From positions 1-57,929 of IMG/VR virus record IMGVR_UViG_3300045988_084596: a stretch of DNA of 57,929 nucleotides. One strand, 5' to 3'. This stretch comes from a virus. The position numbers were made by a program, and so were the translations under genes. The number at the start of each line of letters is the position of its first letter. Position 1 is the stretch's first letter. The notes under the pieces were generated by a model. That model worked only from the letters and a program-made list of their open reading frames with translations. It was not told where the DNA came from and ran no database searches. Below, in pieces: positions 40,739 through 53,713 of this stretch.

Positions 40739-40745
40739 ATCTTAT

Positions 40746-42450: not shown

Positions 42451-42494
42451 ATTATCCACTTCTGCCCAACCGCACGGAAGAAAGGAAACTGCAA

Positions 42495-43262
42495 ATGAAA
42501 CGAGAAGAGCTCAAACAACACGCGCAATCGCATTACGCAGACATTAAAGTGAGACTCAAGGAAGATACAGATCGCGCAATTATAAACTCTGAAATTTTTG
42601 GCCCCAATCTTCCTTTTCCGCTAAAACCGCAAGAAACCTACCATAATACCTTTTATCTTAAAGACCAAGATAGCGTATCCTGTCTATTTGGTTTAACCGA
42701 TCGGAGCAAGACCGCAATCTTAAATTATGCAAGCTATAAACATCCAGGTGGTTACTTCCTTGGAGGCAGCTCTGCACAAGAAGAGGCATTGTGTCACGAA
42801 AGCAACCTTTATCCTATTCTTCTTGCTTTTGATGATACTTATTACGCATGGAATAGACAGAGACTAAATCGAGCCCTATATCTTGATAGAGCTATCTATA
42901 CTCCTGATGTAGTCTTTGAAAAAGACAATGGTAGAAAATTAGCTGATGTAATTACTTGTGCTTCTCCTAATTATAGAACAGCACATACTTATCAGCAAGT
43001 TCCTCTTTCTCTAAACAATAGGATAATGGAAGAGAGAATTAATTTTATGTATCGGATTGCCGAGGCTAAGGGAGTGGAAAATTTAATCGCGGGAGCCTGG
43101 GGCTGTGGTGTTTTTATGCAAGATCCATCAACGGTCGCCACCTTGCTCGTAAGCGCAGCCCGCAATTATAATATTCCAAATATTTATTTTGCAATTCCAG
43201 ACCGCAATTCCCGCAATTTTAGAATTTTCTTGGAGGTTTTGGAAAAATGTTCAAGCAATTAA
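42495..43262 (+). CDS. bacterial-type poly(ADP-ribose) glycohydrolase-like macrodomain protein (DUF2263/TIGR02452 family)
   Basis: RBS GGAAGAAAGGAAAC. Signature ILNYASYKHPGGYFLGGSSAQEEALCHESNLY matches the PARG catalytic GGG-X6-8-QEE motif (T. curvata PARG LNFASA..PGGGFL.G..AQEE.LCR.S.LY). TAG-free; TAA stop. Confidence 0.75.
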   Translation: MKREELKQHAQSHYADIKVRLKEDTDRAIINSEIFGPNLPFPLKPQETYHNTFYLKDQDSVSCLFGLTDRSKTAILNYASYKHPGGYFLGGSSAQEEALCHESNLYPILLAFDDTYYAWNRQRLNRALYLDRAIYTPDVVFEKDNGRKLADVITCASPNYRTAHTYQQVPLSLNNRIMEERINFMYRIAEAKGVENLIAGAWGCGVFMQDPSTVATLLVSAARNYNIPNIYFAIPDRNSRNFRIFLEVLEKCSSN

Positions 43263-43684
43263 TTATCGCAAGACGAGATTTAAATATGTCTCCAGGGAAA
43301 CTTGCCGCACAAGTTTCCCATGCTTCTATTGCTTTTCTTTTGGAAAAGTTATATTGGGGAAGTAAAGAAGTTGTTAAAGAAAGAGACGGTCTTATGTATC
43401 ATATAGGAATAAGCCTCGATAGAGACTTATTCCATAACTGGATAGCGGAAGCGGAGACCAAAGTAGTTTGTAGAGCGAAGAATAAGAATGATTTGCTAAA
43501 AGCTGTTGCAATGGCTAAAGAATTAGGATGGGAAGAGAATAAAGACTACTGGCTTATTTATGATGCTTGTAGGACGGAGTTAGAGCGTGAAGGCCCGGAA
43601 GGGACTTTGACGTGTATTGGATTTAGGCCAATGGAGGCGGAAGAAATTGATAAAATTGGGAAGAAGTATCAGCTTTATAATTAA
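43247..43684 (+). CDS. peptidyl-tRNA hydrolase, PTH2 family
   Basis: N-terminus MFKQLIIARRDLNMSPGKLAAQVSHASIAF matches the PTH2 signature (human PTRH2 [25 protein letters not shown]). Overlaps the PARG-like gene by 16 nt; TAG-free. Confidence 0.75.
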   Translation: MFKQLIIARRDLNMSPGKLAAQVSHASIAFLLEKLYWGSKEVVKERDGLMYHIGISLDRDLFHNWIAEAETKVVCRAKNKNDLLKAVAMAKELGWEENKDYWLIYDACRTELEREGPEGTLTCIGFRPMEAEEIDKIGKKYQLYN

Positions 43685-43889
43685 CATAATATTAATCGTA
43701 TTGTTGTTAACTGCTTGCGGAAAGGAGAACGATCGTTATCCAAGGCTAGAGTATATTCCTACAATGTGGAGATCTGATGCGACTAATATTAAACTAGAGG
43801 ATGGATATATCTTAAAAGGATATGAAATGATAGAAACTGAGGATGGATATAATTTGATTTTTAATTTTGAAGCAACCGACGATGGATAA
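43617..43889 (+). CDS. small lipoprotein (90 aa), candidate superinfection-exclusion-type protein
   Basis: Signal peptide RRKKLIKLGRSISFIINIILIVLLLTAC with lipobox LLTAC. Overlaps the Pth2 3' end in another frame, so the start is uncertain. Confidence 0.4.
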   Translation: MDLGQWRRKKLIKLGRSISFIINIILIVLLLTACGKENDRYPRLEYIPTMWRSDATNIKLEDGYILKGYEMIETEDGYNLIFNFEATDDG

Positions 43890-44310
43890 AGTATTAGTAT
43901 GGTTTGACGGTAAGCATTATTATAATATATGCGCAGTCTGTGGAGAATTATATCCAATTTACAAAGTAGAAGATCATATTATATATAATTTAAAGAAGAA
44001 GTGTAAATGCGGAGAGAAGAAGTGAGTTCTTCTCTCTTTTTCGTTATTGAGATTGAAAAGTTGATTTAGATTTTGAAATGGCGTGGCAGAACGATTTCAC
44101 CAAAAAATTTCCAGTTTTTCCCAAAATACACGCCCCTCTTTCACATGGTAAAGTATTGAAGTGTAGTTGGCCTCTTTCGCTCGCTAAAGTACGAAAGCAA
44201 GAAAGCACGCCCCTAAAGGAATACGCGCGCGTAAAGGGTTTGTGCAAACTGCACAACAAGATGTTATTTATTTTGTGCAAAAGAGAGAGAAAGAAATTTC
44301 AAAAAAACTA

Positions 44311-44339
44311 TTGACAAGTGAGCGTTTTGGTGGTAAACT
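44311..44339 (+). promoter_or_regulatory. sigma70-type promoter (first of two tandem)
   Basis: TTGACA-agtgagcgttttggtgg(17)-TAAACT with a preceding A-tract. Perfect inverted repeat ACTGGAC tt GTCCAGT sits at the expected +1. Confidence 0.45.
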
Positions 44340-44405
44340 GGACTTGTCCAGTAGGACAGAGACAAAAGCACGGCACTTTGAAAATTAAAAAATTTCAAAA
44401 AAGGT

Positions 44406-44434
44406 ATTGACAAACTGCTAAAGGTTTGATACAA
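44406..44434 (+). promoter_or_regulatory. sigma70-type promoter (second tandem)
   Basis: TTGACA-aactgctaaaggtttga(17)-TACAAT with extended TG; A-tract upstream. Confidence 0.5.
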
Positions 44435-44488
44435 TACAGACAGAACAAAAGAGAACCACACCACAAAAAGAAAGGGAGTCAAAAGAGT

Positions 44489-44863
44489 ATGAAAAAGATT
44501 GATTTTACCAATGAAGATCGAGCCATTATTATGGAGTATATGGCGGCTAAGATGGCTAAGTCTGCGGCGGAGGCGGCGGAGAAAGCAGCTAAGGCTAAGG
44601 CTAAAGAGCTATTCTCCAGATTAGGTAAGGCTTTTAAGGCTACGGACAAAACAAGTTATCTATATGGCACGGTACAAATGCAGGGTAAGGCGAAAGCGGT
44701 GGTATATAAAGAAACTACCGCAAAAGGAACGGTTGACTGGAAAGCCTATGCTATGGCATTAGGTGGAACGGAAGCCGAAGCAGAGCAATTCCGCAGACCT
44801 TCCGATATTCGTACCTCTTTTGATTGGGCGACAAAGACCCAAGAAGAAGAAATTAGAGGATAA
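44489..44863 (+). CDS. hypothetical Ala/Lys-rich protein (124 aa)
   Basis: RBS AAAGGGAGTCAAAAGAGT before ATG at 44489. The track ORF starts further upstream at 44426 in the same frame. Confidence 0.45.
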   Translation: MKKIDFTNEDRAIIMEYMAAKMAKSAAEAAEKAAKAKAKELFSRLGKAFKATDKTSYLYGTVQMQGKAKAVVYKETTAKGTVDWKAYAMALGGTEAEAEQFRRPSDIRTSFDWATKTQEEEIRG

Positions 44864-45130
44864 CAGTTTATAAACCCTGCCTTGCAAAACACAAGGCAAG
44901 GCAGGGTTATAATAATTAAAAGAAAGGGGCATACTATATGTATCAGTTACAAGTTTTAGCCAATGAGAAAATGCGCTATTATGAACCATCCACCCTTTCA
45001 ATGGCAAGATGGAAGGTCAGTCACGAGATAGTCAATCCTAATCATTGGATTGTGGATTTATCCAGTGGAGAAATCGTAGATTAAAAAGAAGCTGACCTAA
45101 CGGCTATACGGGGAGAAAGGATAAAAGACT

Positions 45131-45433
45131 ATGAACAATTATATTAAGTGGTTCGTTGGGCCTACTTTTAGAAAGCGTGAATTTATTAAACTTTTGCGGT
45201 ATAAGATGAATGTGCGTTCCGCAGAGGTAGAGGACGGCATCATCTTAGACCTGGATGCTTTTAATGCCATGCGAGTGGCCTATATGCCACACTGGGCTTA
45301 TATCAATAGAAAGTTTATCAATAGCAATCTGCATACCAGAATTGCAAGCGAAGACGAATATAAGGTTGCTATGATCGGAGATACAATCGGTACTGAATGG
45401 GTTAAAGAACAGGAGGCAAAGAAATGGAAATGA
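45131..45433 (+). CDS. hypothetical protein (100 aa)
   Basis: RBS GGGGAGAAAGG; TGA stop. Confidence 0.4.
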   Translation: MNNYIKWFVGPTFRKREFIKLLRYKMNVRSAEVEDGIILDLDAFNAMRVAYMPHWAYINRKFINSNLHTRIASEDEYKVAMIGDTIGTEWVKEQEAKKWK

Positions 45434-45592
45434 GAATTATTAAGCGGATAGGAGGCGGCATTTGTGCCGCTCTCCTACTCTGGACAGTTCTTAGTTGGGC
45501 TGATATAGTGGCGGATAACTGTGAGCCAAACCCACAGCACAGCGAATATAATATGTTCGTTCTCATGACTAAATAATAGGAGGAAAAAGAAA

Positions 45593-45826
45593 ATGTATAG
45601 AGGGACTTATATCGACGCCATGGGCCGCAAGCGCAGAGAGATGGGATATTTCAGTCTTAATAAGCCCACTCTGAATAAACTCCATATACCAGTAATTGTC
45701 CAAGCGAGAGATAAGACAAGTGCGGCGAATAAAATCAATAGGAAATATAAGTTGCGTATAAGTCCCAGTAATCTGCGGGAGGTGCCGATGGGCACAGGCT
45801 ATCTCATGGAAACCATGGAGCTGTAA
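45593..45826 (+). CDS. hypothetical basic protein (77 aa)
   Basis: RBS AGGAGGAAAAAGAAA before ATG; TAA stop followed by a double terminator. Confidence 0.4.
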   Translation: MYRGTYIDAMGRKRREMGYFSLNKPTLNKLHIPVIVQARDKTSAANKINRKYKLRISPSNLREVPMGTGYLMETMEL

Positions 45827-45840
45827 AGGAATAATACTTG

Positions 45841-45875
45841 ACTGGCAATCTACACAAAGATTGCCAGTCATTTTT
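45841..45875 (+). terminator. intrinsic terminator (first of a tandem pair)
   Basis: ACTGGCAATC tacacaaa GATTGCCAGT then CATTTTT. Confidence 0.55.
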
Positions 45876-45898
45876 ATGCACTTTTCCATATTGACTTT

Positions 45899-45937
45899 TC
45901 GCCGGGCCGCCAGCGTGCGCCGCGGCCCGAATTTTTA
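45899..45937 (+). terminator. conserved GC-rich hairpin terminator (family member 1 of 6)
   Basis: CGCCGGGCCGCcagcgtgcGCCGCGGCCCGAATTTTTAT. Confidence 0.55.
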
Positions 45938-46011
45938 TTTATTCGGCAATTTCAACAATTATATGACCGAAAGTCTGTGCAATTCGACGAAAGTTTTTCT
46001 CCCGAAATTAC

Positions 46012-46040
46012 TTGACATTCCTTTTGCCATGTGTTATTAT
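46012..46040 (+). promoter_or_regulatory. consensus sigma70-type promoter
   Basis: TTGACA-ttccttttgccatgtgt(17)-TATTAT, preceded by TCTCCCGAAA. Confidence 0.55.
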
Positions 46041-46092
46041 ATACTTGTCCAAAGGGACAGGCCACAAAAAGAATTTGAAAGGAAGTAAAAAA

Positions 46093-46332
46093 ATGACTTT
46101 AGATATGGTTGCTTGGTTACTTTCTCCGCTTGCAGAAGATACTATGTTCTTTGACGGGGAGGGATTCGAAATTATCAATAAGAATACCCAAGCTCATTAC
46201 CACGAATTACCTGATGGTAGAATAACTCTGGGAGGAGACGTAATCGAGGTATCTAAGGAATGGGTTCTGGGACTTCAGGTAACCGGCATTGAGGCAAGAG
46301 ATAACAATTTAATCATTTATGTAGATGGTTAA
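46093..46332 (+). CDS. hypothetical protein (79 aa)
   Basis: RBS GAAAGGAAGTAAAAAA before ATG at 46093. Confidence 0.4.
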   Translation: MTLDMVAWLLSPLAEDTMFFDGEGFEIINKNTQAHYHELPDGRITLGGDVIEVSKEWVLGLQVTGIEARDNNLIIYVDG

Positions 46333-46394
46333 GAAAACTTGCGGGAGTGGAGGCCATAAATCTCCACTCCCCATGATAAAAAGGAGGAATAAAT

Positions 46395-46610
46395 ATGATT
46401 GCTGTTATTAAATTTGAAAGTGTAGAAAAATCTGCGGAGTTTGGAGACACAATTTGTAATATGGCTGGTTGGTGTTTGAATCATCCTCTTAATTCCAATG
46501 TTACCGGCTGTGTTCGTACTCTTGATTTTAATACCGGCGACAAACAAGATAGAGCCTTATATAATTATCTGCTAAAAATTAGAGCTTTCGAGGAGGTGGA
46601 ACTAAAGTGA
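46395..46610 (+). CDS. hypothetical protein (71 aa)
   Basis: RBS AAAAGGAGGAATAAAT before ATG. Confidence 0.4.
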   Translation: MIAVIKFESVEKSAEFGDTICNMAGWCLNHPLNSNVTGCVRTLDFNTGDKQDRALYNYLLKIRAFEEVELK

Positions 46611-47016
46611 GTATTGAGCGTTTACCGCATACATATCCTATCGGTTCCACTGTTTGGACAAATAAGGGATATGGCACAGTTCTACTTCACATTGGTAAAT
46701 ACCATCTGGTTTGGTTACAGAGATTAGGGCTGGCGTAATGCCGGCCCTATTGATTTTTTCAAAAAAATATATTATAATAATTATAGAAAAATAAAGAAAG
46801 GAGTTTTTCTAATGACCTTAGAAGTGCTGAAAGCACTCGCGGTTATTTTGGAGTTCTGTTTGAACTAGGATTCTTGTAAAAATTGCCCTATGTCTCAGTT
46901 CTGCCAGAAAATGCCTTGCGAGCGGTAAATGTTCCTTCCGATTGTTCTAAATCGGCGATTCCCGTGATGGAGTCGTTTTTCGCACGAGCCTAGGTCACTA
47001 GAATTTATTTATCAAA

Positions 47017-47250
47017 ATGCAAGAAACTACTTTCTCTCGCAAATTAGATTCAAGTGGTAGAATTATGATTCCGATTCGCTTGCGTGAACAAATGGGACTT
47101 ACTTCCGGTTAGGAATACTATTTTACTACTATGGTAAAAGATGGTAGAAAATATATCTGTATTGACTGCGGATCGGTTGATTCCTCGCTTGAAGAAGCTA
47201 TGAAAATTATCCAAGCAAACGGATTAAAGATTGTTGAAAATGCCGATTGA
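47017..47250 (+). CDS. AbrB/SpoVT-like swapped-hairpin DNA-binding protein (77 aa) with one in-frame TAG at 47110
   Basis: KLDSSGRIMIPIRLREQMGLTSG(TAG)EYYFTTMVKDGRKYICI resembles the AbrB N-terminal domain (VDELGRVVIPIELRR.LGI...). TGA stop, then a double terminator. Confidence 0.55.
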
Positions 47251-47293
47251 CTTCTCAAAAGAAAGGGAGTTGTTGGTATGCAGAAATTAATGA

Positions 47294-47324
47294 CCTCCTG
47301 AAATTCAGGAGGTTCTTTTTTTAT
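47294..47324 (+). terminator. intrinsic terminator
   Basis: CCTCCTGAAATTCAGGAGG then TTCTTTTTTTAT. Confidence 0.6.
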
Positions 47325-47329
47325 TCGAT

Positions 47330-47368
47330 CGCCCGGCCGTGCACTATAGGCGCGGCCGGAATTTTTTA
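47330..47368 (+). terminator. conserved GC-rich hairpin terminator (family member 2)
   Basis: GCCCGGCCGtgcactataggCGCGGCCGGAATTTTTTAT. Confidence 0.55.
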
Positions 47369-47369
47369 T

Positions 47370-47423
47370 CAAGAGGCAATTTGCACAATTTTCCAGCCGA
47401 AATTTTGTGCAGTTTGCCTCTTG
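47370..47423 (+). promoter_or_regulatory. conserved dyad element (CAAGAGGCAA-TTGCACAATTTT...AATTTTGTGCA-TTGCCTCTTG)
   Basis: Near-perfect 22-bp inverted repeat around a 9-nt centre, located between the terminator pair and the promoter. Paralogous copies at 48263-48310, 49842-49919, 51636-51670 and 45946-45982. Confidence 0.5.
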
Positions 47424-47449
47424 TTTTCTATCCCGAAATCTGATATACT
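47421..47449 (+). promoter_or_regulatory. sigma70-type promoter
   Basis: TTGTTT-17-TATACT with extended TG, preceded by TATCCCGAAA. Confidence 0.45.
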
Positions 47450-47481
47450 TTAATCAACCTAAAGAAAGGAAGTAAATCAAA

Positions 47482-47946
47482 ATGAAAAAGATGCTCTGCT
47501 TTGATATGGATGGAACAATCGCTGACCTGTACGGCGTGGATGATTGGTTAAAAGATTTAATGAATGAAAATCCCTATCCATATACAGTCGCCAAACCTCT
47601 TTGCGATATAGAAGAATTGAATACCGTTCTTAATAAGCTCATTGAGCAGGGCTGGGAAATTCGGGTTATCAGTTGGCTTGCAAAAGACAGTTCTAACTCA
47701 TATAAAACTGCTGTTCGTGACGCAAAGCGCACTTGGCTTGCAAAATACAACTTCCCCGCACATAAAGTCCACCTTGTGGAATATGGCACAACAAAAGCAA
47801 ATTGTGTGCGGAAACACTTTGAGCCGGGAATTAGCAATTTCATTTTGATTGATGATAATAAAAGTGTGCGGGATGGCTGGCATTTAGGGGAAACAATCGA
47901 GCCACATGAAGATTTACCTACGGCCTTATGGCGACTGGTAGAGTAA
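47482..47946 (+). CDS. HAD-superfamily 5'(3')-deoxyribonucleotidase-like protein (154 aa)
   Basis: Motif I MLCFDMDGTIADLYG (DxDGT) is typical of NT5C-type dNMP nucleotidases. RBS GAAAGGAAGTAAATCAAA. Confidence 0.65.
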   Translation: MKKMLCFDMDGTIADLYGVDDWLKDLMNENPYPYTVAKPLCDIEELNTVLNKLIEQGWEIRVISWLAKDSSNSYKTAVRDAKRTWLAKYNFPAHKVHLVEYGTTKANCVRKHFEPGISNFILIDDNKSVRDGWHLGETIEPHEDLPTALWRLVE

Positions 47947-47986
47947 TCCACCAGTCAATCTTAAAATAAGAAAGGAAGTTTTGTAA

Positions 47987-48175: not shown

Positions 48176-48199
48176 GAGGGCTTCGGCCCTCTTATTTTT
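48175..48199 (+). terminator. intrinsic terminator (UUCG-type tetraloop hairpin)
   Basis: AGAGGGCTTCGGCCCTCT then TATTTTT. Confidence 0.55.
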
Positions 48200-48216
48200 A
48201 CTCTTTAATATCGTTT

Positions 48217-48262
48217 GGGCGGCTCGCTGGCGCACGCGGCGAGCCGAGTTTTTGTTTTTGTC
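48217..48262 (+). terminator. conserved GC-rich hairpin terminator (family member 3)
   Basis: GGGCGGCTCGCtggcgcacgcGGCGAGCCGAGTTTTTGTTTTTG. Confidence 0.55.
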
Positions 48263-48307
48263 GATGTTGCACAATTTTGGCTTGCAAATTTTGTGCAATT
48301 TGCCATC

Positions 48308-48336
48308 TTGTAATTATCCCGAAAGTATGGTATTAT
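48308..48336 (+). promoter_or_regulatory. sigma70-type promoter
   Basis: TTGTAA-17-TATTAT with extended TG, preceded by TATCCCGAAAG. Confidence 0.45.
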
Positions 48337-48501
48337 ATATTTGTCAAGAGGGGAAGGCCAAGAAATCAAGAGGTCGCGAACTCTTAGAAAGTAAAGGAAG
48401 TAAATTTATATTGTGTCGTAAGTCGAGTGAACGCCGTTAGAATAGGCCGTTCTAATGCCCAGTAGCTTGCAGTAAATCGCAATAAAAATTTCCTTTTCCT
48501 C

Positions 48502-48530
48502 TTGACATCAAGCATGATATGTGCTATAAT
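48502..48530 (+). promoter_or_regulatory. consensus sigma70-type promoter
   Basis: TTGACA-tcaagcatgatatgtgc(17)-TATAAT. Confidence 0.55.
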
Positions 48531-48562
48531 AAACTCAACAAGAGGAAAGGAAGTCAAAGATT

Positions 48563-49354
48563 ATGATTGATAAGCGTAGACACTATGTTTTGGTGGTTGA
48601 TACTGAAACTGCTAACACACTGACTGAAACTGACGAAAACGGCAAAGCCCGCATGGATATGAGTTGCGTTCTTGTCTATGATTGCGGATGGGCGGTAGTG
48701 GATACCAAGGGCAATATTTATGAAACTGCCAGTTTTGTAAATAGGGACATTTTCAACGATGAGCGGGATCTCATGCGGACTGCTTATTATAATTGGAAAA
48801 TTCCCCGCTATATTGAGGAACTGCGGGCCGGCACTCGTAAAATGGCTACCACTTATGAAATCCGCCAAGCTATGCTCAATACCATTGAGCGATACGGCAT
48901 TAAGGAAGTTGCGGCTTATAATGCCAGATTTGACGATAATGCCTTGAGAGTTACACAACGATGGGTCACTTGCTCCAAGTTCCGCTACTGGTTCCCGTTT
49001 GATAGTGTGGAAATCTGGGACATTATGAAGATGACACAGGATGTTATCTGCAATATGCCCACTTATAAGAAATTCTGTCAGGAAAACGGATATGTCCAGG
49101 CCAATGGCGTTCCTCGTAAGACTGCGGAAATCGTGTGGCGGTTTATTTCTGGCAATACCGATTTTGAAGAAAGTCATACGGGGCTTGAGGATGTTCTCAT
49201 TGAGGCGGAAATCATGTGGTATTGTATGCGTCAGCATAAGCCCATGAGAAAGGCCCTGTATGAGAATAAGAGAGAGTTTCCACCTATGACAGATTTTCAG
49301 CGTCAACTTTCCGCAAGTATGCGTTCAATTCCAACTATCCGGGTAGGGGCTTAA
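48563..49354 (+). CDS. DEDDh-family 3'-5' exonuclease (DnaQ-like), 263 aa
   Basis: Exo I motif VVDTETAN, Exo II motif AYNARFD, Exo III motif HTGLEDVLIEAE (H...D). RBS AGAGGAAAGGAAGTCAAAG. Confidence 0.6.
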   Translation: MIDKRRHYVLVVDTETANTLTETDENGKARMDMSCVLVYDCGWAVVDTKGNIYETASFVNRDIFNDERDLMRTAYYNWKIPRYIEELRAGTRKMATTYEIRQAMLNTIERYGIKEVAAYNARFDDNALRVTQRWVTCSKFRYWFPFDSVEIWDIMKMTQDVICNMPTYKKFCQENGYVQANGVPRKTAEIVWRFISGNTDFEESHTGLEDVLIEAEIMWYCMRQHKPMRKALYENKREFPPMTDFQRQLSASMRSIPTIRVGA

Positions 49355-49381
49355 AGCCCCGCCCGACAGAAAGGAAATAAT

Positions 49382-49573
49382 ATGTCTCAAGTTCATTGTA
49401 TGCGGTGGAGTTGCCCGCATTATGCCGAGGAAGGCATGGACCCAGAACAAATCTATGATACTATCTGCCCAGATTTTGACACGGAATCACTTTGTTGCTC
49501 TTTGGGTGAGCCATGGTTCGACTGTGACGAATATCAGAGACAATATGGAGTTGATGATTTCGAGGAGGAATAA
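49382..49573 (+). CDS. small acidic Cys-rich protein (63 aa)
   Basis: RBS AGAAAGGAAATAAT before ATG. Confidence 0.35.
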   Translation: MSQVHCMRWSCPHYAEEGMDPEQIYDTICPDFDTESLCCSLGEPWFDCDEYQRQYGVDDFEEE

Positions 49574-49574
49574 A

Positions 49575-49757
49575 ATGGTAACAAAAACTGTATATACCTC
49601 TTCTCTGTGCGCAGATGCCGTTTATATGGCAATTCAAATTATTGAGCGTATGGGATGGTGTCATGATGATATTGACGAAGATGGAAATATGCTGGTAAAT
49701 GTTCCCATTGAGGATGAACACCTGTTTGATTTTCTGGATAACTGTATTTTCTGTTAA
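49575..49757 (+). CDS. small hypothetical protein (60 aa)
   Basis: RBS GAGGAGGAATAAA before ATG at 49575. The track's longer 49422 ORF shares the 3' part. Confidence 0.3.
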   Translation: MVTKTVYTSSLCADAVYMAIQIIERMGWCHDDIDEDGNMLVNVPIEDEHLFDFLDNCIFC

Positions 49758-49786
49758 GAAGGGCTTCGGCCCTTCTTTTTTTATAC
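49758..49786 (+). terminator. intrinsic terminator (UUCG tetraloop hairpin)
   Basis: GAAGGGCTTCGGCCCTTC then TTTTTTTAT. Confidence 0.55.
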
Positions 49787-49792
49787 AAAATT

Positions 49793-49832
49793 TGAGCGGG
49801 TCGCGCAGGAACGGCGCGACCCGAGTTTTTCT
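49793..49832 (+). terminator. conserved GC-rich hairpin terminator (family member 4)
   Basis: GAGCGGGTCGCGCaggaacgGCGCGACCCGAGTTTTTC. Confidence 0.55.
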
Positions 49833-50027
49833 TTGTAAATGTTGCACAAAAATTTCAGCTCCGTTTTGTGTAAAATTCTGCACAAAAACTTTCTCCCAAA
49901 ATTCAGATTTTTTGTGCAATTTGACGCTTGCAATCTGCTTTTGCTTGTGGTAAAATACATTCAGAAAGTGAGAGAGACGAACGGCAGACAGCGACAGCGA
50001 ATTTCTCAAAAATCTTTCAAGAATCTC

Positions 50028-50056
50028 TTGACAAGCCTTTGAAGATGTGCTATAAT
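50028..50056 (+). promoter_or_regulatory. consensus sigma70-type promoter P1 of a triple tandem array
   Basis: TTGACA-agcctttgaagatgtgc(17)-TATAAT. Confidence 0.55.
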
Positions 50057-50105
50057 AAGTACAGAAAACAAGGCAAGGAACCTTGAAAAGTGAATAAAAA
50101 AGGGC

Positions 50106-50134
50106 TTGACAAACTCTCCAAAGTGTGTTACACT
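50106..50134 (+). promoter_or_regulatory. sigma70-type promoter P2
   Basis: TTGACA-aactctccaaagtgtgt(17)-TACACT. Confidence 0.45.
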
Positions 50135-50200
50135 ATAAGGGAGGTTGAGAGGGCAAACAAGTAAAGAGCAAAAGTTCTTGAAAAAAGTTTGAAAAACCTC

Positions 50201-50229
50201 TTGACAAACTCCCGATAGTGTGGTACAAT
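50201..50229 (+). promoter_or_regulatory. sigma70-type promoter P3
   Basis: TTGACA-aactcccgatagtgtgg(17)-TACAAT with extended TG. Confidence 0.5.
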
Positions 50230-50278
50230 ATAATCAAAGGACAAGGACAGTCCTAAAAACCAGAAAGGATGTATTACC

Positions 50279-50680
50279 ATGAGCGAGAAGAAAATCCGTA
50301 TCACTAAGGCCCAGCGTTTCGAGGACATTAAGGCCCTCTTGGCTGGTGATGAGGTGAAGCATGGCACAACCATGGAGATTGCCATGACCGTCATTGACCA
50401 TGAGCTGGAGCTGTTGCGGAAGAAGAATAGCTCCGGCGGTGACAAGAAGCTGACCTCGACCCAGCAGGAGAACGAAAACTTTAAGGAGCAGATTATGGAG
50501 TATCTGGCTGGTCTGGACGCCGATACCGATGGCGTGACCTGCACGGAAATTTTTAAGGCTATTCCTGATCTGACGGCCTATTCTAACCAGAAGGTCGCCG
50601 CTCTTGTGCGGCAGTTGAAACTCGATGGTCGAGTAGTCTGCACGGAGAAGAAGGGCAAGTCCCTCTTTAAGATGGCGTAA
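50279..50680 (+). CDS. hypothetical protein (133 aa), compositionally atypical (GC-rich codons), possible winged-helix C-terminus
   Basis: RBS AGAAAGGATGTATTACC. Codon usage (CTG, GAG, AAG, GCC) differs visibly from the rest of the window. Followed by hairpin GGGCGGGGtgaaaatCCCCGCCC. Confidence 0.45.
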   Translation: MSEKKIRITKAQRFEDIKALLAGDEVKHGTTMEIAMTVIDHELELLRKKNSSGGDKKLTSTQQENENFKEQIMEYLAGLDADTDGVTCTEIFKAIPDLTAYSNQKVAALVRQLKLDGRVVCTEKKGKSLFKMA

Positions 50681-50818
50681 CCCCGTATAGGGCGGGGTGA
50701 AAATCCCCGCCCTAACTTATAATATGGGGGTGATATTATATCCAGTCGCATTAGTGACGCTGAACGGATTGCAAGGTATAAAGCCCTGCAATTAACGCCG
50801 GAAGAGGAGGCAGATTTA

Positions 50819-51136
50819 TTGGCCTATGATAAGGCGGTAGAGGCTGATAAAAAGACTGAATACGATTTATCGCCAGAAAAGGCGAAAATCGCTCAAAAGT
50901 TTGCCCATGCTGGAACGCGCAAACAGCCAACCGCATATAAGTTCACTACACGGCAACGCAAGCCAAACGCCACGAAAGGCGGTATAATTGCGGAATTGGC
51001 AGAGTTTTTGGAAAAAAACAGTCAATTCTCTATCGCTGACTTGTCTATTACTAACAAGGAAAGACAGATTGCGTTTTCTATTGGTGGGGATAGTTTCGAG
51101 TTGACGCTTGTGCAAAAGCGTAAGCCGAAGAAATAA
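50819..51136 (+). CDS. hypothetical basic protein (about 105 aa); start uncertain
   Basis: TTG at 50819 from the track. The frame is open back to 50723 with no ATG. Followed by hairpin CGGGGTAGGgtcggCCTACCCCG. Confidence 0.3.
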   Translation: MAYDKAVEADKKTEYDLSPEKAKIAQKFAHAGTRKQPTAYKFTTRQRKPNATKGGIIAELAEFLEKNSQFSIADLSITNKERQIAFSIGGDSFELTLVQKRKPKK

Positions 51137-51192
51137 CGGGGTAGGGTCGGCCTACCCCGGCCCTACCAGAAAAGAGGCAAGTTATAGTTAGT

Positions 51193-51543
51193 TTGCAGAC
51201 AAGGGGAAAAGAGTTCCTATATGTCGGACATTATATCGACAAAAAGGGGCGCTATATTCTCAAGATTGGTACGACAAATGACCTTGAACGCAGAGCCGCA
51301 GAGCATACGAGAAATTATAAGCGGGCGCCAGATTACACCATGCCGGAAGATGGTTCCTTTATCTATGATTGGCATATCAAACTTTCCAAGTATAATACCC
51401 TACGATACGAGGATGTAAACCGGACTTTGTGGCAGAATATGGGAATTGGTCGTTTTATCAGAAATGACCGTTTCTTGTGCGACACTCCCCCGGCCATGGT
51501 TACGGTGGTTATTCGCAAGGCATATCCAATAATTCTCAACTAA
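51193..51543 (+). CDS. GIY-YIG-like nuclease domain protein (116 aa)
   Basis: FLYVGHYIDKKGRYILKIGTTNDLERRAAEHTRNY resembles the GIY...YIG...R...E catalytic core. Confidence 0.45.
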   Translation: MQTRGKEFLYVGHYIDKKGRYILKIGTTNDLERRAAEHTRNYKRAPDYTMPEDGSFIYDWHIKLSKYNTLRYEDVNRTLWQNMGIGRFIRNDRFLCDTPPAMVTVVIRKAYPIILN

Positions 51544-51548
51544 AGAAA

Positions 51549-51577
51549 AATCTCCCCTTATGGGGAGATTTTTTTTA
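51549..51577 (+). terminator. intrinsic terminator
   Basis: ATCTCCCCttatGGGGAGAT then TTTTTTTT. Confidence 0.6.
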
Positions 51578-51587
51578 CGCAAAATTT

Positions 51588-51628
51588 TGGGCGGACCGCT
51601 TGCGTGCGCCGCGGTCCGATTTTTTCTT
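51588..51628 (+). terminator. conserved GC-rich hairpin terminator (family member 5)
   Basis: GGGCGGACCGCttgcgtgcGCCGCGGTCCGATTTTTTC. Confidence 0.55.
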
Positions 51629-51679
51629 CTATTGTCATTTTCAACAATTTTGAATTGAAAATCTGTGCAACTTGACAGC

Positions 51680-51708
51680 TTGACTTTCTCCCAAAAATGT
51701 GGTATCAT
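51680..51708 (+). promoter_or_regulatory. sigma70-type promoter
   Basis: TTGACT-17-TATCAT with extended TG, preceded by TTTCTCCCAAAAA. Confidence 0.45.
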
Positions 51709-51734
51709 TTAACCATGGAAAGGAGATAAAAGAA

Positions 51735-52187
51735 ATGGAAAGTCTGAAACAATTTCGTGTTAATTTTCAAGTTACCTTTTGGTGTGAAGGTCGCAAGGGT
51801 ATTTTCTCTAAGAAGCCTTATAAATTTACGGTATCATTTTGTGATGATATTATACTTTCTACCTTTTTAATCAATGCTCGAACCGAAAAAGAAGCGGTTA
51901 AAACGGGGAAAAACTATGTTGAAAATATAGTTCAATGTTGGGTTGAACAGTCAGAAGAAAATCAAGCCACAGGCGAATATATGATTTTAACTGGAAATAT
52001 GGCTGATACAAAAAGATTTGAGTGGTCGCCTAAAATCTACGCCATTACCGGGTATGAAATTAAATTTATTTCTTGTGAAATGGTTTGCGACTGGGCAAAA
52101 GAAAGGGTCGAGAGAGCGGCAAGAGAACTGACTATGGAGCAATTTAAGCAAGTTTTTAGTGAAATTCCGGCTGAGATTTTTCATTAA
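51735..52187 (+). CDS. hypothetical protein (150 aa)
   Basis: RBS AAAGGAGATAAAAGAA before ATG at 51735. Confidence 0.4.
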   Translation: MESLKQFRVNFQVTFWCEGRKGIFSKKPYKFTVSFCDDIILSTFLINARTEKEAVKTGKNYVENIVQCWVEQSEENQATGEYMILTGNMADTKRFEWSPKIYAITGYEIKFISCEMVCDWAKERVERAARELTMEQFKQVFSEIPAEIFH

Positions 52188-52204
52188 AGAAAGGAGATTT
52201 TTAG

Positions 52205-52456
52205 ATGGTTGATATTGATTTCAACAAACTGAATGACGAGGAGTTGCAATGGTTGAGTGCTACAGCCTATAAAGAAGTGGCACTTAGAAAACAAAAAGCG
52301 CGAGAGAAAGATTGGAATAGTCTAATCGAAGAGATAGACGAGTATTGTAAAAAGTATGGAGAAATAACTATCGTTGAATATGGAGATAAATTTGTTCTTG
52401 AATTTCCGATACGGTGTAACTGTATAGGAGAAATCAATTTAGAAAACGAGGATTAA
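52205..52456 (+). CDS. hypothetical protein (83 aa)
   Basis: RBS AAAGGAGATTTTTAG before ATG. Confidence 0.4.
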   Translation: MVDIDFNKLNDEELQWLSATAYKEVALRKQKAREKDWNSLIEEIDEYCKKYGEITIVEYGDKFVLEFPIRCNCIGEINLENED

Positions 52457-52458
52457 GA

Positions 52459-52486
52459 AAAGAGAGGCTTCGGCCTCTCTTTTATT
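52459..52486 (+). terminator. intrinsic terminator (UUCG tetraloop hairpin)
   Basis: AAGAGAGGCTTCGGCCTCTCTT then TTATTT. Confidence 0.5.
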
Positions 52487-52502
52487 TCATATTTCCTAAA
52501 CT

Positions 52503-52541
52503 CGACGGGCCGATCGCGGGCGACTCGGCCCGAGTTTCCCC
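52503..52541 (+). repeat. GC-rich hairpin family member 6 (no T-run)
   Basis: CGACGGGCCGatcgcgggcgactCGGCCCGAG has the same architecture as the five terminator hairpins but ends in TTTCCCC. Confidence 0.4.
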
Positions 52542-53269
52542 GATCGGACCATAGCGCAAAATTTTCATAGCAACTTGGCCATAACGCAACTTCATAGCGA
52601 TTTTCCCAAAATTCATAACGCCCTCTTCCAAACACCGATCGGCCCTACTTTACTTCTTCCTTTATCTAGTTCCGATCGGTTCAGCAATATTGGCTCTCTC
52701 GTCCAATTTTTTATAATAAAAATCTTAAAATTGTCAAGTATTCACAGTACCAAAACTTTCTAAAATACAACTAGCAATAGCAAAGATATAGCTATGAAAA
52801 ACAAATACGACCAGAGATTTCTTTCGCGGAGCCGATCGGTTTAACACGATTTTATGATAAAAATAGCTTAAAAATAGAGATTTTAGCTAGATAAACCGAT
52901 CGGCCCGCAATCTTTTACCTTTTGTTATCGCAAAATATAACAAAAAACCTCTAAAATCTTGCAAAAATGCGCGTTTTTCTAACAAATTTACTTAAAAATA
53001 AGTAAAAAATGCCTCGTTTTTCTCAAAATTTCTTGATATTCACAGAATTAAAACCATTAAAGATACAGCAAACAATAGCAAAGATGTTGCTAACTATTTG
53101 AAAAGGAAAAATCTTTTCCGCGGGATTCCATTAAAGCGATCTTTTTATCTAGACCCGATCGGTTCGACAATATATAAAAAATATAATATAATATATACAT
53201 AAGATAAAGAAAAGGAGGATTTTAGTTTAAGAAGCATCATAACGCTTTTTCTAACTAAAAGAACTTATT

Positions 53270-53713
53270 ATGAATAGTTATGAGATTATGATTCGTGATG
53301 CAATGCAGAATGGTTCTACTCAGGAGGAGATTGCAAAGGCATTTACCGATGCTATGAATAGAATCTCCGAGGCTAACGCCGCAGACCGTGAACGCGATAT
53401 TCTTCTGGATGAGATTGAGTCTACTTTTTATGGCAATGTTGATGATTTGTCTCTCACTGAGGATGACGTTGGTCGTGTAGCTGCGCTGGTTTATAGCAAG
53501 AGCAATCCTAAGTGGACAGCAAATGATATTAAGCAGTTTATGCAGGCTATGACTGTAACTGCTAAGACTTCCGCTCGAGTAGTCAATGCAAAGAGTCTTG
53601 ATGAAGTAATTGACATTGCTGTTGACTCTATTTCTGATGCTCTCGCAGGTAGTATGAATAAGGCTAAGACTGATGAGGACAATATCATGGAGTTTTTGAG
53701 ACATTTGAAGTAA
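53270..53713 (+). CDS. hypothetical acidic protein (147 aa)
   Basis: Protein-like composition on the plus strand; the antisense ORF 53255-53722 is low-complexity. Weak RBS; followed by terminator GGAGAGAAGtattgtaGCTTCTCTCC plus a T-run. Confidence 0.4.
   Translation: MNSYEIMIRDAMQNGSTQEEIAKAFTDAMNRISEANAADRERDILLDEIESTFYGNVDDLSLTEDDVGRVAALVYSKSNPKWTANDIKQFMQAMTVTAKTSARVVNAKSLDEVIDIAVDSISDALAGSMNKAKTDEDNIMEFLRHLK

What the first reader, a model, noticed from the sequence alone, without database searches (positions are those of the whole stretch)
42495..53713. Two genomic compartments: GC-richer, TAG-free, promoter-dense early region versus AT-rich, TAG-laden late region
All plus-strand genes from 42495 to 53713 end in TAA or TGA and contain no in-frame TAG; the AbrB-like gene has one, an exception.

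These genes use visibly GC-richer codons. Examples are 48563-49354 and 50279-51543.

They are driven by near-consensus TTGACA-17-TATAAT promoters, which suggests host RNAP and the standard code before any recoding machinery acts.

The minus-strand structural module is AT-rich and unreadable without TAG suppression. This matches the early and late code-switch logic proposed for recoded phages, and adds a compositional dimension.
Basis: seen in the sequence. Interest (0 to 1): 0.65.

Follow-up and report, generated by a model that had tools for sequence, protein, structure and literature searches.

The report
TAG-free early island in recoded phage
This is a fragment of a gut phage that reads the stop codon TAG as glutamine in most virion genes, while an 11-kb block of small, promoter-rich genes stays free of TAG and uses GC-richer codons; the layout is a clear example of an already published early/late code-switch design, with a codon-composition split added.

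Summary
The 22 plus-strand genes at 42.5-53.7 kb hold 1 in-frame TAG in 2,496 codons. The 26 minus-strand virion genes hold 294 in 12,571 (58 expected in the island, P=3e-24). No gene ends in TAG. Pooled GC3 is 0.41 against 0.22, with almost no overlap. The island carries 9 extended -10 TTGACA-17-TATAAT promoters (0.15 expected) and many terminators.

The window is about 58 kb of a roughly 145-149 kb SPbeta-like siphovirus, a distant relative of phAss-1. TAG means Gln. The suppressor tRNA(CUA) is not in the window. In near-identical contigs it lies about 25 kb to the right, behind a perfect sigma-A promoter and beside about 30 other tRNAs.

In 23 relatives the island orthologs have no TAG, and their GC3 is 0.15-0.25 above the late module of the same genome. 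A standard-code relative, phage EF1, shows no such split.

"Two compartments" is too simple: five abundant virion genes lack TAG, some plus-strand genes carry TAG, and TAG-free AT-rich blocks exist.

The early/late, dual-coded model is already published (Borges 2021; Pfennig 2022). Possibly new are the conserved GC3 offset, PeSL-like terminator-promoter cassettes, and an AbrB-like regulator that gained one TAG independently in several lineages.

The parts
42300..53800 (+). TAG-free, GC3-rich, promoter- and terminator-dense island of about 22 small genes. It is only 66% coding.
2385..40709 (-). AT-rich virion module in which TAG means Gln. It runs from terminase and portal through the tape measure to the tail fibres. 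21 of 26 genes contain TAG. The 2,901-aa tape measure (15618-24323) has 111.
47017..47250 (+). AbrB/SpoVT-family regulator gene, the only island gene with an in-frame TAG (47110-47112, codon 32). The TAG lies inside the DNA-binding domain.
48502..48530 (+). Perfect TTGACA-17-TATAAT promoter with extended -10 TG, upstream of gene 48563-49354.
50028..50229 (+). Three tandem TG-type promoters (50028-50056 at 12/12, 50106-50134 at 10/12, 50201-50229 at 11/12) upstream of gene 50279-50680, which has GC3 0.70.
44311..44435 (+). Two TG-type promoters (44311-44339 at 10/12, 44407-44435 at 11/12) upstream of the gene that starts at ATG 44489.
45896..46040 (+). Regulatory cassette copy 1: G+C-rich terminator hairpin, inverted repeat, then TG-type promoter (46012-46040).
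47326..47446 (+). Regulatory cassette copy 2. A 1.6-kb insertion in relative L012 sits exactly here.
48213..48336 (+). Regulatory cassette copy 3.
49791..49900 (+). Regulatory cassette copy 4, with a degenerate promoter part. It marks the edge of a variable segment.
51585..51708 (+). Regulatory cassette copy 5, with promoter 51680-51708. A deletion breakpoint in relatives L012 and L049 falls here.
40710..40774 (.). Divergent promoter pair at the strand switch. The minus-strand promoter (40738-40710, 11/12 with TG) precedes the first virion-module gene, whose real start is ATG 40685 with SD AAAGGAG and which has 11 TAG. The plus-strand promoter is 40746-40774.
31674..32726 (-). Major capsid protein (YonB family). 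It has no TAG, GC 0.40 and GC3 0.28. It is TAG-free in all relatives down to 55% identity, apart from one TAG in L069.
26534..27925 (-). Tail tube protein (YomU_Tube). It has no TAG and GC3 0.27.
24427..24966 (-). TAG-free 179-aa gene inside the virion module, with its own 12/12 promoter (25027-24999) and terminator (24388-24357).
41092..41916 (+). FolD-like gene on the plus strand. It is AT-rich (GC3 0.26) and has 4 in-frame TAG, so strand does not decide the code.
42495..43684 (+). The first island genes: a microbial-type PARG macrodomain (42495-43262) and a PTH2 peptidyl-tRNA hydrolase (43247-43684).
53900..55129 (-). AT-rich two-gene insert that ends the island. The HTH protein gene 54491-55129 has 11 TAG in 212 codons, the highest density in the window.
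56033..57215 (+). The TAG-free plus-strand genes resume here (GC3 0.31-0.43). In relatives the block runs on to about 63.8 kb with falling GC3.

Best explanation
The flagged region is the host-dependent, 'dual-coded' early gene island of a phage that reads TAG as glutamine.

Shown:
- The window belongs to a roughly 145-149 kb SPbeta-like siphovirus.
- TAG supplies about half of all Gln codons in its virion genes.
- The island avoids TAG both as a sense codon and as a stop.
- It has GC-richer synonymous sites.
- It is cut into one- to three-gene units by strong sigma-A-type promoters and intrinsic terminators.

Inferred: on infection, host RNA polymerase and host tRNAs express the island in the standard code. 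A separate perfect sigma-A promoter, outside the window, drives the suppressor tRNA(CUA), which sits next to a set of about 30 phage tRNAs. Once these accumulate, the AT-rich, TAG-laden genes become translatable. Those genes favour TTA, AGA, ATA and AAA codons, for which the phage carries its own tRNAs.

On this reading the GC3 offset exists because the island stays tied to the codon preferences of a GC-richer Clostridia host. Genes translated after the tRNA array is expressed follow the phage's AT mutational bias, including CAG to TAG.

Repeated terminator-operator-promoter cassettes also make the island a hyperplastic region in which accessory genes are swapped.
For: Recoding:
- The longest ORF rises from 465 to 2,901 aa when TAG is read through.
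- Window TAG positions align to Q in 35-43% of cases in five IMG/VR relatives and 19-28% in phAss-1, L077 and L088, where Q is still the commonest residue; background Q is 3.4-4.4%.
- Three TAG/Q swaps occur in the AbrB-like gene.

Island statistics: 1 against 294 TAG, P=3e-24, with frame-specific depletion. GC3 is 0.41 against 0.22 and no gene ends in TAG.

Promoters and terminators: 9 TG-type promoters against 0.15 expected. There are 31 terminator-like sites against 12.7 expected in 40-58 kb.

Conservation:
- Orthologs of the 20 other island genes that have detectable orthologs (one further ORF, 49382-49573, had none) in up to 23 relatives (28-100% aa identity) have no in-frame stop, except one locus for 49422-49757.
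- In all seven contigs where both modules were sampled, island GC3 exceeds late-module GC3 by 0.15-0.25.
- Island genes present in at least 18 loci are more GC3-rich (0.48) than accessory ones (0.38, p=0.03).
- Across 12 loci (several closely related), late-module GC3 anticorrelates with the TAG share of Gln codons (rho=-0.72, p=0.008).

Control: the standard-code relative EF1 has no GC-rich island. GC3 is 0.24 against 0.19 (p=0.075) and its overall GC there is lower.

Machinery: tRNA(CUA) is found in four relatives, 440 nt downstream of a 12/12 TG-type promoter with no plus-strand terminator-like site reported between them. At least 31 tRNAs include Ile-UAU, Leu-UAA and Arg-UCU. Late genes use ATA, TTA and AGA about twice as often as island genes.

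Host hint: near-identical contigs are binned with Oscillospiraceae and Eubacterium MAGs. Babkin et al. predict a Eubacteriales host for phAss-1.
Against: - There are no expression data, so 'early' rests on promoter matches alone.
- The host is unknown, so 'host-like codon usage' is untested. MAG binning of a phage-sized contig is weak evidence.
- The share of codons Watson-Crick cognate to a phage tRNA is the same in both gene sets (0.50 and 0.51).
- TAG-free status and high GC3 are separable. Capsid and tube genes are TAG-free at GC3 0.27-0.28. Plus-strand genes at about 60-64 kb are TAG-free at GC3 0.18-0.25.
- In phAss-1 the head genes are GC3-rich and TAG-poor although they are late.
- A sigma-A-type promoter also precedes a TAG-rich gene.
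- Island proteins diverge faster than virion proteins (72% against 89% identity in the same contigs), and gene content varies. Exchange therefore contributes.
Confidence: 0.6

Rival explanations
1. Mosaic origin. The island is a hyperplastic region filled by cassette exchange with GC-richer, standard-code phages or hosts. On this view it is TAG-free and GC-rich because of where the DNA came from, not because of when it is expressed.
For: - Five copies of a terminator-inverted repeat-promoter cassette are present.
- Insertion and deletion breakpoints in relatives fall on these cassettes: 47378-47411, about 49385/49754, and 51624. Cassette 1 is 87% conserved between unalignable flanks.
- Eight island genes occur in only 3-6 of 23 relatives.
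- Island proteins diverge faster than virion proteins.
- phAss-1 also looks compositionally mosaic.
Against: - The most widely conserved island genes (at least 18 of 23 loci, down to 28-37% identity) are the most GC3-rich: 0.48 against 0.38 for accessory genes.
- The GC3 offset persists in every lineage even as absolute GC3 shifts by 0.17-0.18.
- No TAG was seen in the 35-68 Gln codons sampled per contig across 13 contigs (not all independent), while TAG/CAR swaps occur freely in the neighbouring AbrB-like gene. This points to ongoing purifying selection rather than recent arrival.
Confidence: 0.2
2. Expression level rather than timing. TAG is avoided wherever high or reliable protein yield is needed, because suppression is inefficient. 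The island is simply a set of strongly expressed genes, like the capsid and tube genes.
For: - Five abundant virion genes, including capsid and tail tube, have no TAG (P=1e-16).
- The capsid gene is TAG-free in every relative examined apart from one TAG in L069.
- The same is reported for a crAss-like phage.
- Island promoters and ribosome-binding sites are near-consensus.
Against: - It does not explain the GC3 offset, since the TAG-free virion genes keep GC3 at 0.21-0.28.
- Many island genes are small ORFans that are unlikely to be needed in bulk.
- It does not explain why TAG is also avoided as a stop codon.
Confidence: 0.1
3. Region-specific mutational bias. Heavy transcription or a different replication or repair exposure would produce the GC3 difference without any selection on codons.
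For: - GC skew changes sign with gene orientation at about 41 kb.
- The island is unusually densely transcribed, judging by its promoters.
Against: - Plus-strand genes on both sides of the island (41092-42269 and 55431-55943) share its strand but are AT-rich.
- The frame-specific absence of TAG cannot be produced by a mutational bias.
- EF1 shows no such effect.
Confidence: 0.07
4. Artefact. The GC-richer block would be host flank or an assembly chimera.
For: None beyond the compositional jump itself.
Against: The same order, virion module then island then tRNA array, recurs in more than 20 independent contigs from different samples and collections. Phage genes lie on both sides.
Confidence: 0.01

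Closest known systems
Recoded phages with a standard-code or 'dual-coded' early block and a code-15 late block (Ivanova 2014; Yutin 2021; Borges et al. preprint 10.1101/2021.08.26.457843; Pfennig et al. Mgcod preprint 10.1101/2022.06.29.495998)
   Same: - TAG means Gln in structural genes.
- A block exists in which TAG is neither sense nor stop, so both codes give the same proteins.
- The code change lies close to a strand switch.
- The phage encodes a suppressor tRNA(CUA).
- The capsid gene is TAG-free, as reported for a crAss-like phage.
   Different: - This is a different virus group: an SPbeta-like siphovirus, probably of Clostridia, rather than crAss-like or Lak phages.
- The code boundary does not coincide exactly with the strand switch.
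- The suppressor lies about 44 kb from the start of the code-15 block rather than at its 5' end (the usual position in Pfennig's survey).
- The dual-coded island differs by 0.15-0.25 in GC3. Text searches of those papers found no mention of this.
phAss-1 and the proposed Phassvirus group (Babkin et al. 2023, PMC10607447; OQ749652, 'Caudoviricetes code 15 clade')
   Same: - Human-gut origin and a genome of about 136-150 kb.
- A very long tape measure protein.
- 28-36 tRNAs, including Sup-CTA.
- TAG means Gln in terminase, portal and tail genes.
- No dedicated aminoacyl-tRNA synthetase is reported.
- The capsid protein is 52% identical.
   Different: - There is no megablast-level DNA similarity, so this is a different genus-level lineage.
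- The window phage is much more AT-rich. Its late GC3 is 0.22-0.24, against about 0.2-0.26 only in the phAss-1 tail block.
- It is recoded far more widely (TAG share of Gln 0.44-0.46).
- In phAss-1 the head genes are GC3-rich and TAG-poor.
PeSL regulatory cassettes of T4-type phages (Arbiol et al. 2010, PMC2839356; Comeau et al. 2014, PMC4122927)
   Same: - Repeated composite elements of about 100-150 nt combine a strong sigma-70-type promoter with a G+C-rich stem-loop terminator.
- They lie between small ORFan genes in a hyperplastic region.
- Indel breakpoints between relatives fall on them.
   Different: - There is no sequence relationship, and the host is Gram-positive-type (TG-extended -10 promoters).
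- The stem-loop is a separate upstream terminator.
- An additional inverted repeat (TTGCACAATTT...AAATTTTGTGCAA) lies between terminator and promoter.
- Mini-circle formation was not tested.
Host-takeover early gene cluster of Bacillus phage SPO1 (recalled from my own knowledge, not checked here)
   Same: Many small genes of unknown function are arranged in short operons, each with a strong sigma-A promoter and terminator, and are expressed first by host RNA polymerase.
   Different: No homology was tested. SPO1 uses the standard code throughout and switches by phage sigma factors.
Enterococcus phage EF1 (MF001358), a standard-code relative
   Same: It has an SPbeta-like virion module (capsid 36% identical), a genome of about 142 kb, several tRNAs in the 50-kb stretch examined (Arg, Ile-TAT, Phe, Cys), and small genes divergent from the virion module.
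   Different: It has no TAG recoding and uses TAG for 16% of stops. It has no GC3-rich island (0.24 against 0.19).

Membership tests
Code-15 (TAG to Gln) recoded phage with a dual-coded early block | In-frame TAG breaks conserved phage genes, and read-through restores full-length ORFs. | tested here: met
   The longest ORF rises from 465 to 2,901 aa. 21 of 26 virion genes contain TAG.
Code-15 (TAG to Gln) recoded phage with a dual-coded early block | TAG positions correspond to glutamine in homologs. | tested here: met
   Q is the commonest residue at window TAG positions in all seven subjects: 35-43% in five relatives and 19-28% in phAss-1, L077 and L088, against a 3.4-4.4% background. There are three TAG/Q swaps in AbrB-like orthologs.
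Code-15 (TAG to Gln) recoded phage with a dual-coded early block | The phage encodes a suppressor tRNA with anticodon CUA. | tested here: inconclusive
   The window has none (0 tRNAs; no Rfam match reaching a gathering score). It is present in four relatives, two of which carry a capsid protein 99-100% identical to the window's, about 25 kb beyond the window end. The window's own genome was not seen there.
Code-15 (TAG to Gln) recoded phage with a dual-coded early block | A contiguous block in which the reassigned codon is used neither as sense nor as stop. | tested here: met
   In 42495-53713 there is 1 TAG in 2,496 codons and no TAG stop. This holds in 23 relatives.
Code-15 (TAG to Gln) recoded phage with a dual-coded early block | The dual-coded block contains early-expressed genes. 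| not testable with these tools
   Only indirect support: 9 TG-type sigma-A promoters and small ORFans. There are no expression data.
Code-15 (TAG to Gln) recoded phage with a dual-coded early block | The code switch coincides with the switch of coding strand. | tested here: not met
   It is close but not exact. Plus-strand FolD (41092-41916) has 4 TAG. Plus-strand fibre genes in relatives also have TAG (L020 15249-19450). Five minus-strand genes have none.
Code-15 (TAG to Gln) recoded phage with a dual-coded early block | The host uses the standard code. | not testable with these tools
   The host is unknown. Related contigs are binned with Oscillospiraceae and Eubacterium MAGs.
SPbeta-like siphoviruses and the phAss-1 group | Virion proteins belong to the YonB/YonD/YonG/YomU/YomV/YomW families. 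| tested here: met
   Pfam hits are recorded for products of near-identical contigs.
SPbeta-like siphoviruses and the phAss-1 group | Same genus as phAss-1 (Phassvirus members share 80-86% nucleotide identity). | tested here: not met
   There was no megablast match to any of 50,697 phage records. The capsid protein is only 52% identical at the amino-acid level.
PeSL-type mobile regulatory cassettes | A repeated composite of a strong sigma-70-type promoter and a stem-loop terminator lies between ORFan genes. | tested here: met
   Five copies are present. The hairpin has compensatory changes at 5 of 10 pairs.
PeSL-type mobile regulatory cassettes | Recombination between cassettes generates indels or mini-circles. 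| tested here: inconclusive
   Indel breakpoints in relatives lie on cassettes 2, 4 and 5. Mini-circles cannot be tested here.
AbrB/SpoVT transition-state regulators (gene 47017-47250) | An N-terminal swapped-hairpin DNA-binding domain. | tested here: met
   A profile of six orthologs hits the AbrB N-domain (1z0r, 2k1n, 1yfb; E about 2e-6), Abh and SpoVT. The single sequence falls just below the Pfam cut-offs.

The most novel reading that the evidence does not exclude
The phage may run two translational regimes that are also written into codon composition. The first is a host-tRNA, standard-code regime for the early island. The second is a phage-tRNA, TAG-as-Gln regime for everything made after its roughly 30-tRNA array and suppressor are expressed.

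The AbrB-like repressor inside the island would act as a sensor of the switch. Its DNA-binding domain is interrupted by a single TAG that arose independently at codons 25, 32 and 40 in different lineages. Full-length protein could therefore appear only once suppression is active. It might then bind the inverted repeat in the terminator-promoter cassettes and shut the early promoters off.
Probability: 0.2. Interest if true: 0.7.

Novelty: new member of a known kind. Interest (0 to 1): 0.42.

Why it matters
Recoded phages are common in gut viromes, but how and when they switch code is known only from sequence patterns.

This clade offers a clean case outside the crAss-like phages. A sharply bounded, code-neutral early island is marked by consensus promoters, and the suppressor tRNA sits behind a consensus promoter of the same kind.

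The conserved GC3 offset, and the clade-wide link between AT-richness and the TAG share of Gln codons, support the idea that recoding spreads by AT-biased mutation in genes freed from host translational constraints. They also give a simple sequence-only marker (GC3 plus absence of TAG) for predicting early genes and improving annotation.

The TAG-interrupted AbrB-like regulator is a concrete, testable candidate for a link between the code switch and transcriptional timing.

Tried and rejected
- Other recodings. Reading TGA through left the longest ORF at 465 aa. Reading TAA through inflates ORFs non-specifically (longest 515 aa).
- Megablast of both halves of the window against 50,697 phage records found nothing. 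Protein-level search was needed.
- Recoding machinery inside the window was not found: 0 tRNAs and no Rfam match reaching a family's gathering score. I walked rightwards through IMG/VR relatives in three steps before finding tRNA(CUA).
- A greedy six-frame ORF caller with TAG read-through gave spurious antisense ORFs in GC-richer DNA. I replaced it with ortholog-based tblastn counts.
- Matching phage tRNA anticodons to codons does not separate the gene sets (0.50 against 0.51). Only the ATA, TTA, AGA and AAA preference differs.
- Within the late genes, TAG density does not correlate with GC3 (rho=0.07). The GC3-TAG link holds between regions and lineages, not gene by gene.
- PHROGs and Pfam gave no function for most island genes.
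- A search for DGR template/variable repeats near the reverse transcriptase found nothing of 50 nt or more in 1-16000.
- The genome-collection scan returned only phage-sized contigs binned into MAGs, not an integrated prophage. The host is therefore not established.
- The 153-aa 'MazE' call in relatives looks like an artefact of TAG read-through upstream. I take the 77-aa ORF from ATG 47017 as the gene.

Full report
**What the window is.** Under the standard code the minus strand from 2.4 to 40.7 kb is shattered, with a longest ORF of 465 aa. Reading TAG through gives a continuous virion module, including a 2,901-aa tape-measure ORF with 111 TAG.

Products called on near-identical public contigs carry the Bacillus SPbeta virion families YonB (capsid), YonD, YonG, YomU (tube), YomV and YomW, plus PhageMin_Tail. 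The capsid protein is 52% identical to that of phAss-1 and 36% identical to that of Enterococcus phage EF1. phAss-1 is a 136-kb TAG-recoded human-gut phage (Babkin et al. 2023, PMC10607447). There is no DNA-level match to any deposited phage.

Related contigs reach 145-158 kb and recur at about 145-149 kb. The window is therefore roughly 40% of a genome. Two such contigs are binned into Oscillospiraceae and Eubacterium MAGs. That is only a weak host hint, though it agrees with Babkin's Eubacteriales prediction.

**Check of the observation.**

- *TAG.* I called ORFs with TAA/TGA as the only stops, so absence of TAG is not circular. The 22 plus-strand genes in 42495-53713 then contain one TAG in 2,496 codons. 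The 26 minus-strand genes contain 294 in 12,571. At that rate 58 would be expected in the island (P=2.6e-24). TAG against CAA+CAG is 1:71 in the island and 294:290 in the late genes (Fisher 5e-19). The island genes still hold 76 out-of-frame TAG trinucleotides, so the depletion is frame-specific.
- *Stops.* No gene in either set ends in TAG (40 TAA, 8 TGA). In EF1, TAG ends 11 of 70 genes, which makes 0 of 48 improbable (P=3e-4). The island is thus 'dual-coded' in the sense of Pfennig et al..
- *Composition.* The GC difference seen per kb lies at third codon positions. Pooled GC3 is 0.407 against 0.220, with nearly disjoint ranges (Mann-Whitney 4e-9). GC1+2 differs only marginally.
- *Promoters and terminators.* The island plus strand has 14 sites matching at least 10 of 12 positions, against 2.4 expected. 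Nine carry an extended -10 TG and a 17-nt spacer, against 0.15 expected. The remaining 46 kb has three such sites, two of them the divergent pair at 40710-40774. Terminator-like hairpins are also enriched (31 against 12.7). The island is only 66% coding, against 98% for the virion module.

**What TAG encodes and where the machinery is.** Window TAG positions align with Q in 35-43% of cases in five IMG/VR relatives and 19-28% in phAss-1, L077 and L088, where Q is still the commonest residue; background Q is 3.4-4.4%. In the AbrB-like gene, TAG and Q swap at three positions between sister lineages.

The window has no tRNA and no Rfam match reaching a family's gathering score. Walking rightwards through IMG/VR contigs of the same phage shows a tRNA array starting about 6.4 kb beyond the window end. 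It holds at least 31 tRNAs, including Gln-UUG, Gln-CUG, Ile-UAU, Leu-UAA and Arg-UCU.

A tRNA with anticodon CUA lies about 25 kb beyond the window end (L027:12790-12865). Positions 2-6 of its acceptor stem (GCGGA) and its discriminator base match the phage Gln-UUG tRNA. It lies 440 nt downstream of a perfect TTGACA-17-TATAAT promoter with TG, and no plus-strand terminator-like site was reported between them. The recoding device therefore appears to be under host-type early control, as the code-switch model needs.

**Is the split general?** tblastn of window island proteins against 23 relatives (28-100% identity) finds no in-frame stop in orthologs of the other island genes. The one exception is a single locus for 49422-49757.

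In every contig where both regions were sampled, island GC3 exceeds late-module GC3: 0.41 against 0.24, 0.46-0.52 against 0.28, and 0.58 against 0.42. Across 12 loci (several closely related) the late-module TAG share of Gln codons falls as GC3 rises (rho=-0.72, p=0.008). This fits AT-biased mutation (CAG to TAG) as the source of TAG, as Borges et al. argued at whole-genome level.

phAss-1 has an AT-rich, TAG-dense tail block (GC3 0.20-0.26) in an otherwise GC3 0.45-0.6 genome. The standard-code relative EF1 shows no GC-rich early block. Text searches of Babkin 2023, Borges 2021 and Pfennig 2022 found no statement about an intragenomic GC or GC3 split.

**Why 'two compartments' is too simple.**

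- Five virion genes (capsid, tube, 32746-33435, 31076-31609, 24427-24966) have no TAG (P=1e-16). They keep GC3 at 0.21-0.28, and their higher GC comes from codon positions 1 and 2.
- The capsid gene is TAG-free in all lineages examined, apart from one TAG in L069. The same is reported for a crAss-like phage.
- Plus-strand FolD (41092-41916) has four TAG and low GC3, so the compositional boundary is near 42.3 kb and not at the strand switch.
- A minus-strand AT-rich insert at 53900-55129 ends the island. Its HTH gene has the highest TAG density in the window.
- TAG-free plus-strand genes resume at 56.0 kb and continue to about 63.8 kb in relatives, with GC3 falling to 0.18-0.25. Fibre genes further right on the plus strand contain TAG, and the genes after the suppressor are again TAG-free.
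- The minus-strand promoter 40738-40710 (11/12 with TG) precedes the first virion-module gene. Its usable start is ATG 40685 behind AAAGGAG, and it carries 11 TAG. Here the block before suppression would be translational, as Borges et al. proposed.

**Architecture of the island.** Five copies of a cassette of about 110-150 nt occur at 45896, 47326, 48213, 49791 and 51585. Each has three parts:

- a G+C-rich hairpin followed by a T run, with compensatory changes at 5 of 10 pairs among the copies;
- an inverted repeat, TTGCACAATTT...AAATTTTGTGCAA;
- a TG-extended promoter.

Synteny breaks between the window and its relatives fall on these cassettes. There is a 1.6-kb insertion at 47378-47411 in L012 flanked by cassette copies, a variable segment ending at 49754, and a deletion from 51624 in L012 and L049. 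Cassette 1 is conserved at 87% between unalignable flanks. This works like the PeSL elements of T4-type phages (PMC2839356).

Exchange therefore contributes to the island. However, its most widely conserved genes are the most GC3-rich (0.48 against 0.38 for accessory genes, p=0.03). That argues against imported composition as the main cause.

Functions found in the island are a microbial-type PARG macrodomain, a PTH2 peptidyl-tRNA hydrolase and a T5orf172 domain protein. Gene 48563-49354 matched only phrog_20187 (unknown function), with no Pfam hit; an exonuclease-like role is my reading of its sequence only. The rest are ORFans.

**The exception.** The 77-aa gene 47017-47250 is an AbrB/SpoVT-type regulator. 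A profile of six orthologs hits the AbrB N-terminal domain at E about 2e-6, although the single sequence is just below the Pfam cut-offs.

Among the 29 loci searched (23 IMG/VR relatives, six close ENA contigs) plus the window, 25 loci carry the gene and 19 of them, like the window, have exactly one in-frame TAG. It sits at codon 32 in the window lineage, at codon 25 in two other lineages and at codon 40 in a fourth. Each position aligns to Q (or to R or K) in sister lineages. Four lineages have none. All three positions lie within the DNA-binding domain.

TAG is therefore tolerated here and nowhere else in the island. The cautious reading is that this regulator is needed only after suppression starts. 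The bolder reading is that it senses the switch and shuts off the early promoters. Nothing here tests binding.

**Verdict.** It also rests on inferred timing and simplifies a mosaic pattern.

My preferred mechanism (confidence 0.6) is a host-dependent, code-neutral early island, with later genes that depend on phage tRNAs and on TAG suppression. Cassette-mediated gene flux is a contributing factor and the main rival (0.2).

The incremental novelties are the conserved GC3 offset, the PeSL-like cassettes in a Gram-positive-type phage, and the recurrent TAG in the AbrB-like regulator.

Noticed in passing
window 47017-47250 (TAG at 47110); orthologs in L045-L066: The AbrB/SpoVT-type regulator is the only early-island gene that tolerates TAG. 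Exactly one TAG occurs at codon 25, 32 or 40 in different lineages, each aligned to Q in sister lineages. All three positions lie inside the DNA-binding domain. It may be gated by the suppressor tRNA.
   Followed up: yes
window 45896-46040, 47326-47446, 48213-48336, 49791-49900, 51585-51708: There are five copies of a composite cassette: a G+C-rich terminator hairpin with compensatory stem changes, the inverted repeat TTGCACAATTT...AAATTTTGTGCAA, and a TG-extended promoter. Indel breakpoints in relatives fall on them. They are functionally like T4-type PeSL elements.
   Followed up: yes
window 31674-32726, 26534-27925, 32746-33435, 31076-31609, 24427-24966: Five virion-module genes, including capsid and tail tube, have no TAG (P=1e-16) but keep low GC3. 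Avoidance of TAG and GC3 richness are therefore separable.
   Followed up: yes
window 40685-40774: A divergent promoter pair sits at the strand switch. A near-consensus TG-type sigma-A promoter drives the first virion-module gene. Its start should be re-assigned to ATG 40685 (SD AAAGGAG), and it contains 11 TAG, which implies translational rather than transcriptional gating.
   Followed up: partly
window 24357-25027: A self-contained unit lies inside the virion module. It has a perfect 12/12 promoter (25027-24999), a TAG-free 179-aa gene and a strong bidirectional terminator (24357-24388), just upstream of the tape-measure gene.
   Followed up: partly
window 24-1241: A reverse transcriptase (RVT_1, E=1e-16, YMDD motif) with 3 in-frame TAG lies at the left edge, followed by a DUF4376 protein (1241-1903) and a CmpB-like membrane protein. 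It looks like a diversity-generating retroelement, but no template/variable repeat of 50 nt or more was found in 1-16000.
   Followed up: partly
window 53900-55129 and 54447-54494: A minus-strand AT-rich two-gene insert sits among plus-strand genes. Its HTH_36 protein gene has 11 TAG in 212 codons, the densest in the window. A 2 x 24-nt tandem repeat lies at its 3' end. Some relatives (L011-L014) carry a small RHH-protein cassette there instead.
   Followed up: no
window 52456-53270, motif copies at 52655-52691, 52832-52851, 53138-53174 and 53825-53849: An ORF-poor gap of about 800 nt carries a repeated motif around the palindrome CCGATCGG (TTTATCTAG..CCGATCGGTTC..CAATAT). The motif overlaps the -35 of promoter-like sites. 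A 72-nt direct repeat occurs at 52723 and 53021. This could be an operator set, an origin or a non-coding RNA locus.
   Followed up: no
window 50028-50680: Three TG-type promoters in tandem, two of them within 57-nt direct repeats, precede the most GC-rich gene of the window (50279-50680, GC 0.52, GC3 0.70). This gene is conserved in 22 of 23 relatives and has no known function.
   Followed up: no
window 41092-43684: Auxiliary genes sit at the start of the plus-strand block: FolD (4 TAG, AT-rich), then a TAG-free microbial-type PARG macrodomain and a PTH2 peptidyl-tRNA hydrolase. The last two could be counter-defence or translation-rescue functions.
   Followed up: partly
L028 1410-1725; L020 and L027 (relatives, right of the window): One relative carries a phage-encoded tmRNA (tag peptide DNDYFENYLAA) inside the tRNA array. 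The array holds at least 31 tRNAs, but no tRNA-Tyr was seen in the stretches examined.
   Followed up: no
window 2339-2386: A 20-bp-stem perfect palindrome flanked by A and T runs lies between the convergent plus-strand genes (24-2339) and the end of the minus-strand virion module. It is a bidirectional terminator.
   Followed up: no
window 46820-46876: An 18-codon hydrophobic mini-ORF (MTLEVLKALAVILEFCLN) lies behind a good SD, in the roughly 230-nt leader between promoter-like site 46750-46778 and the AbrB-like gene. The AbrB-like gene itself lacks an obvious SD.
   Followed up: no
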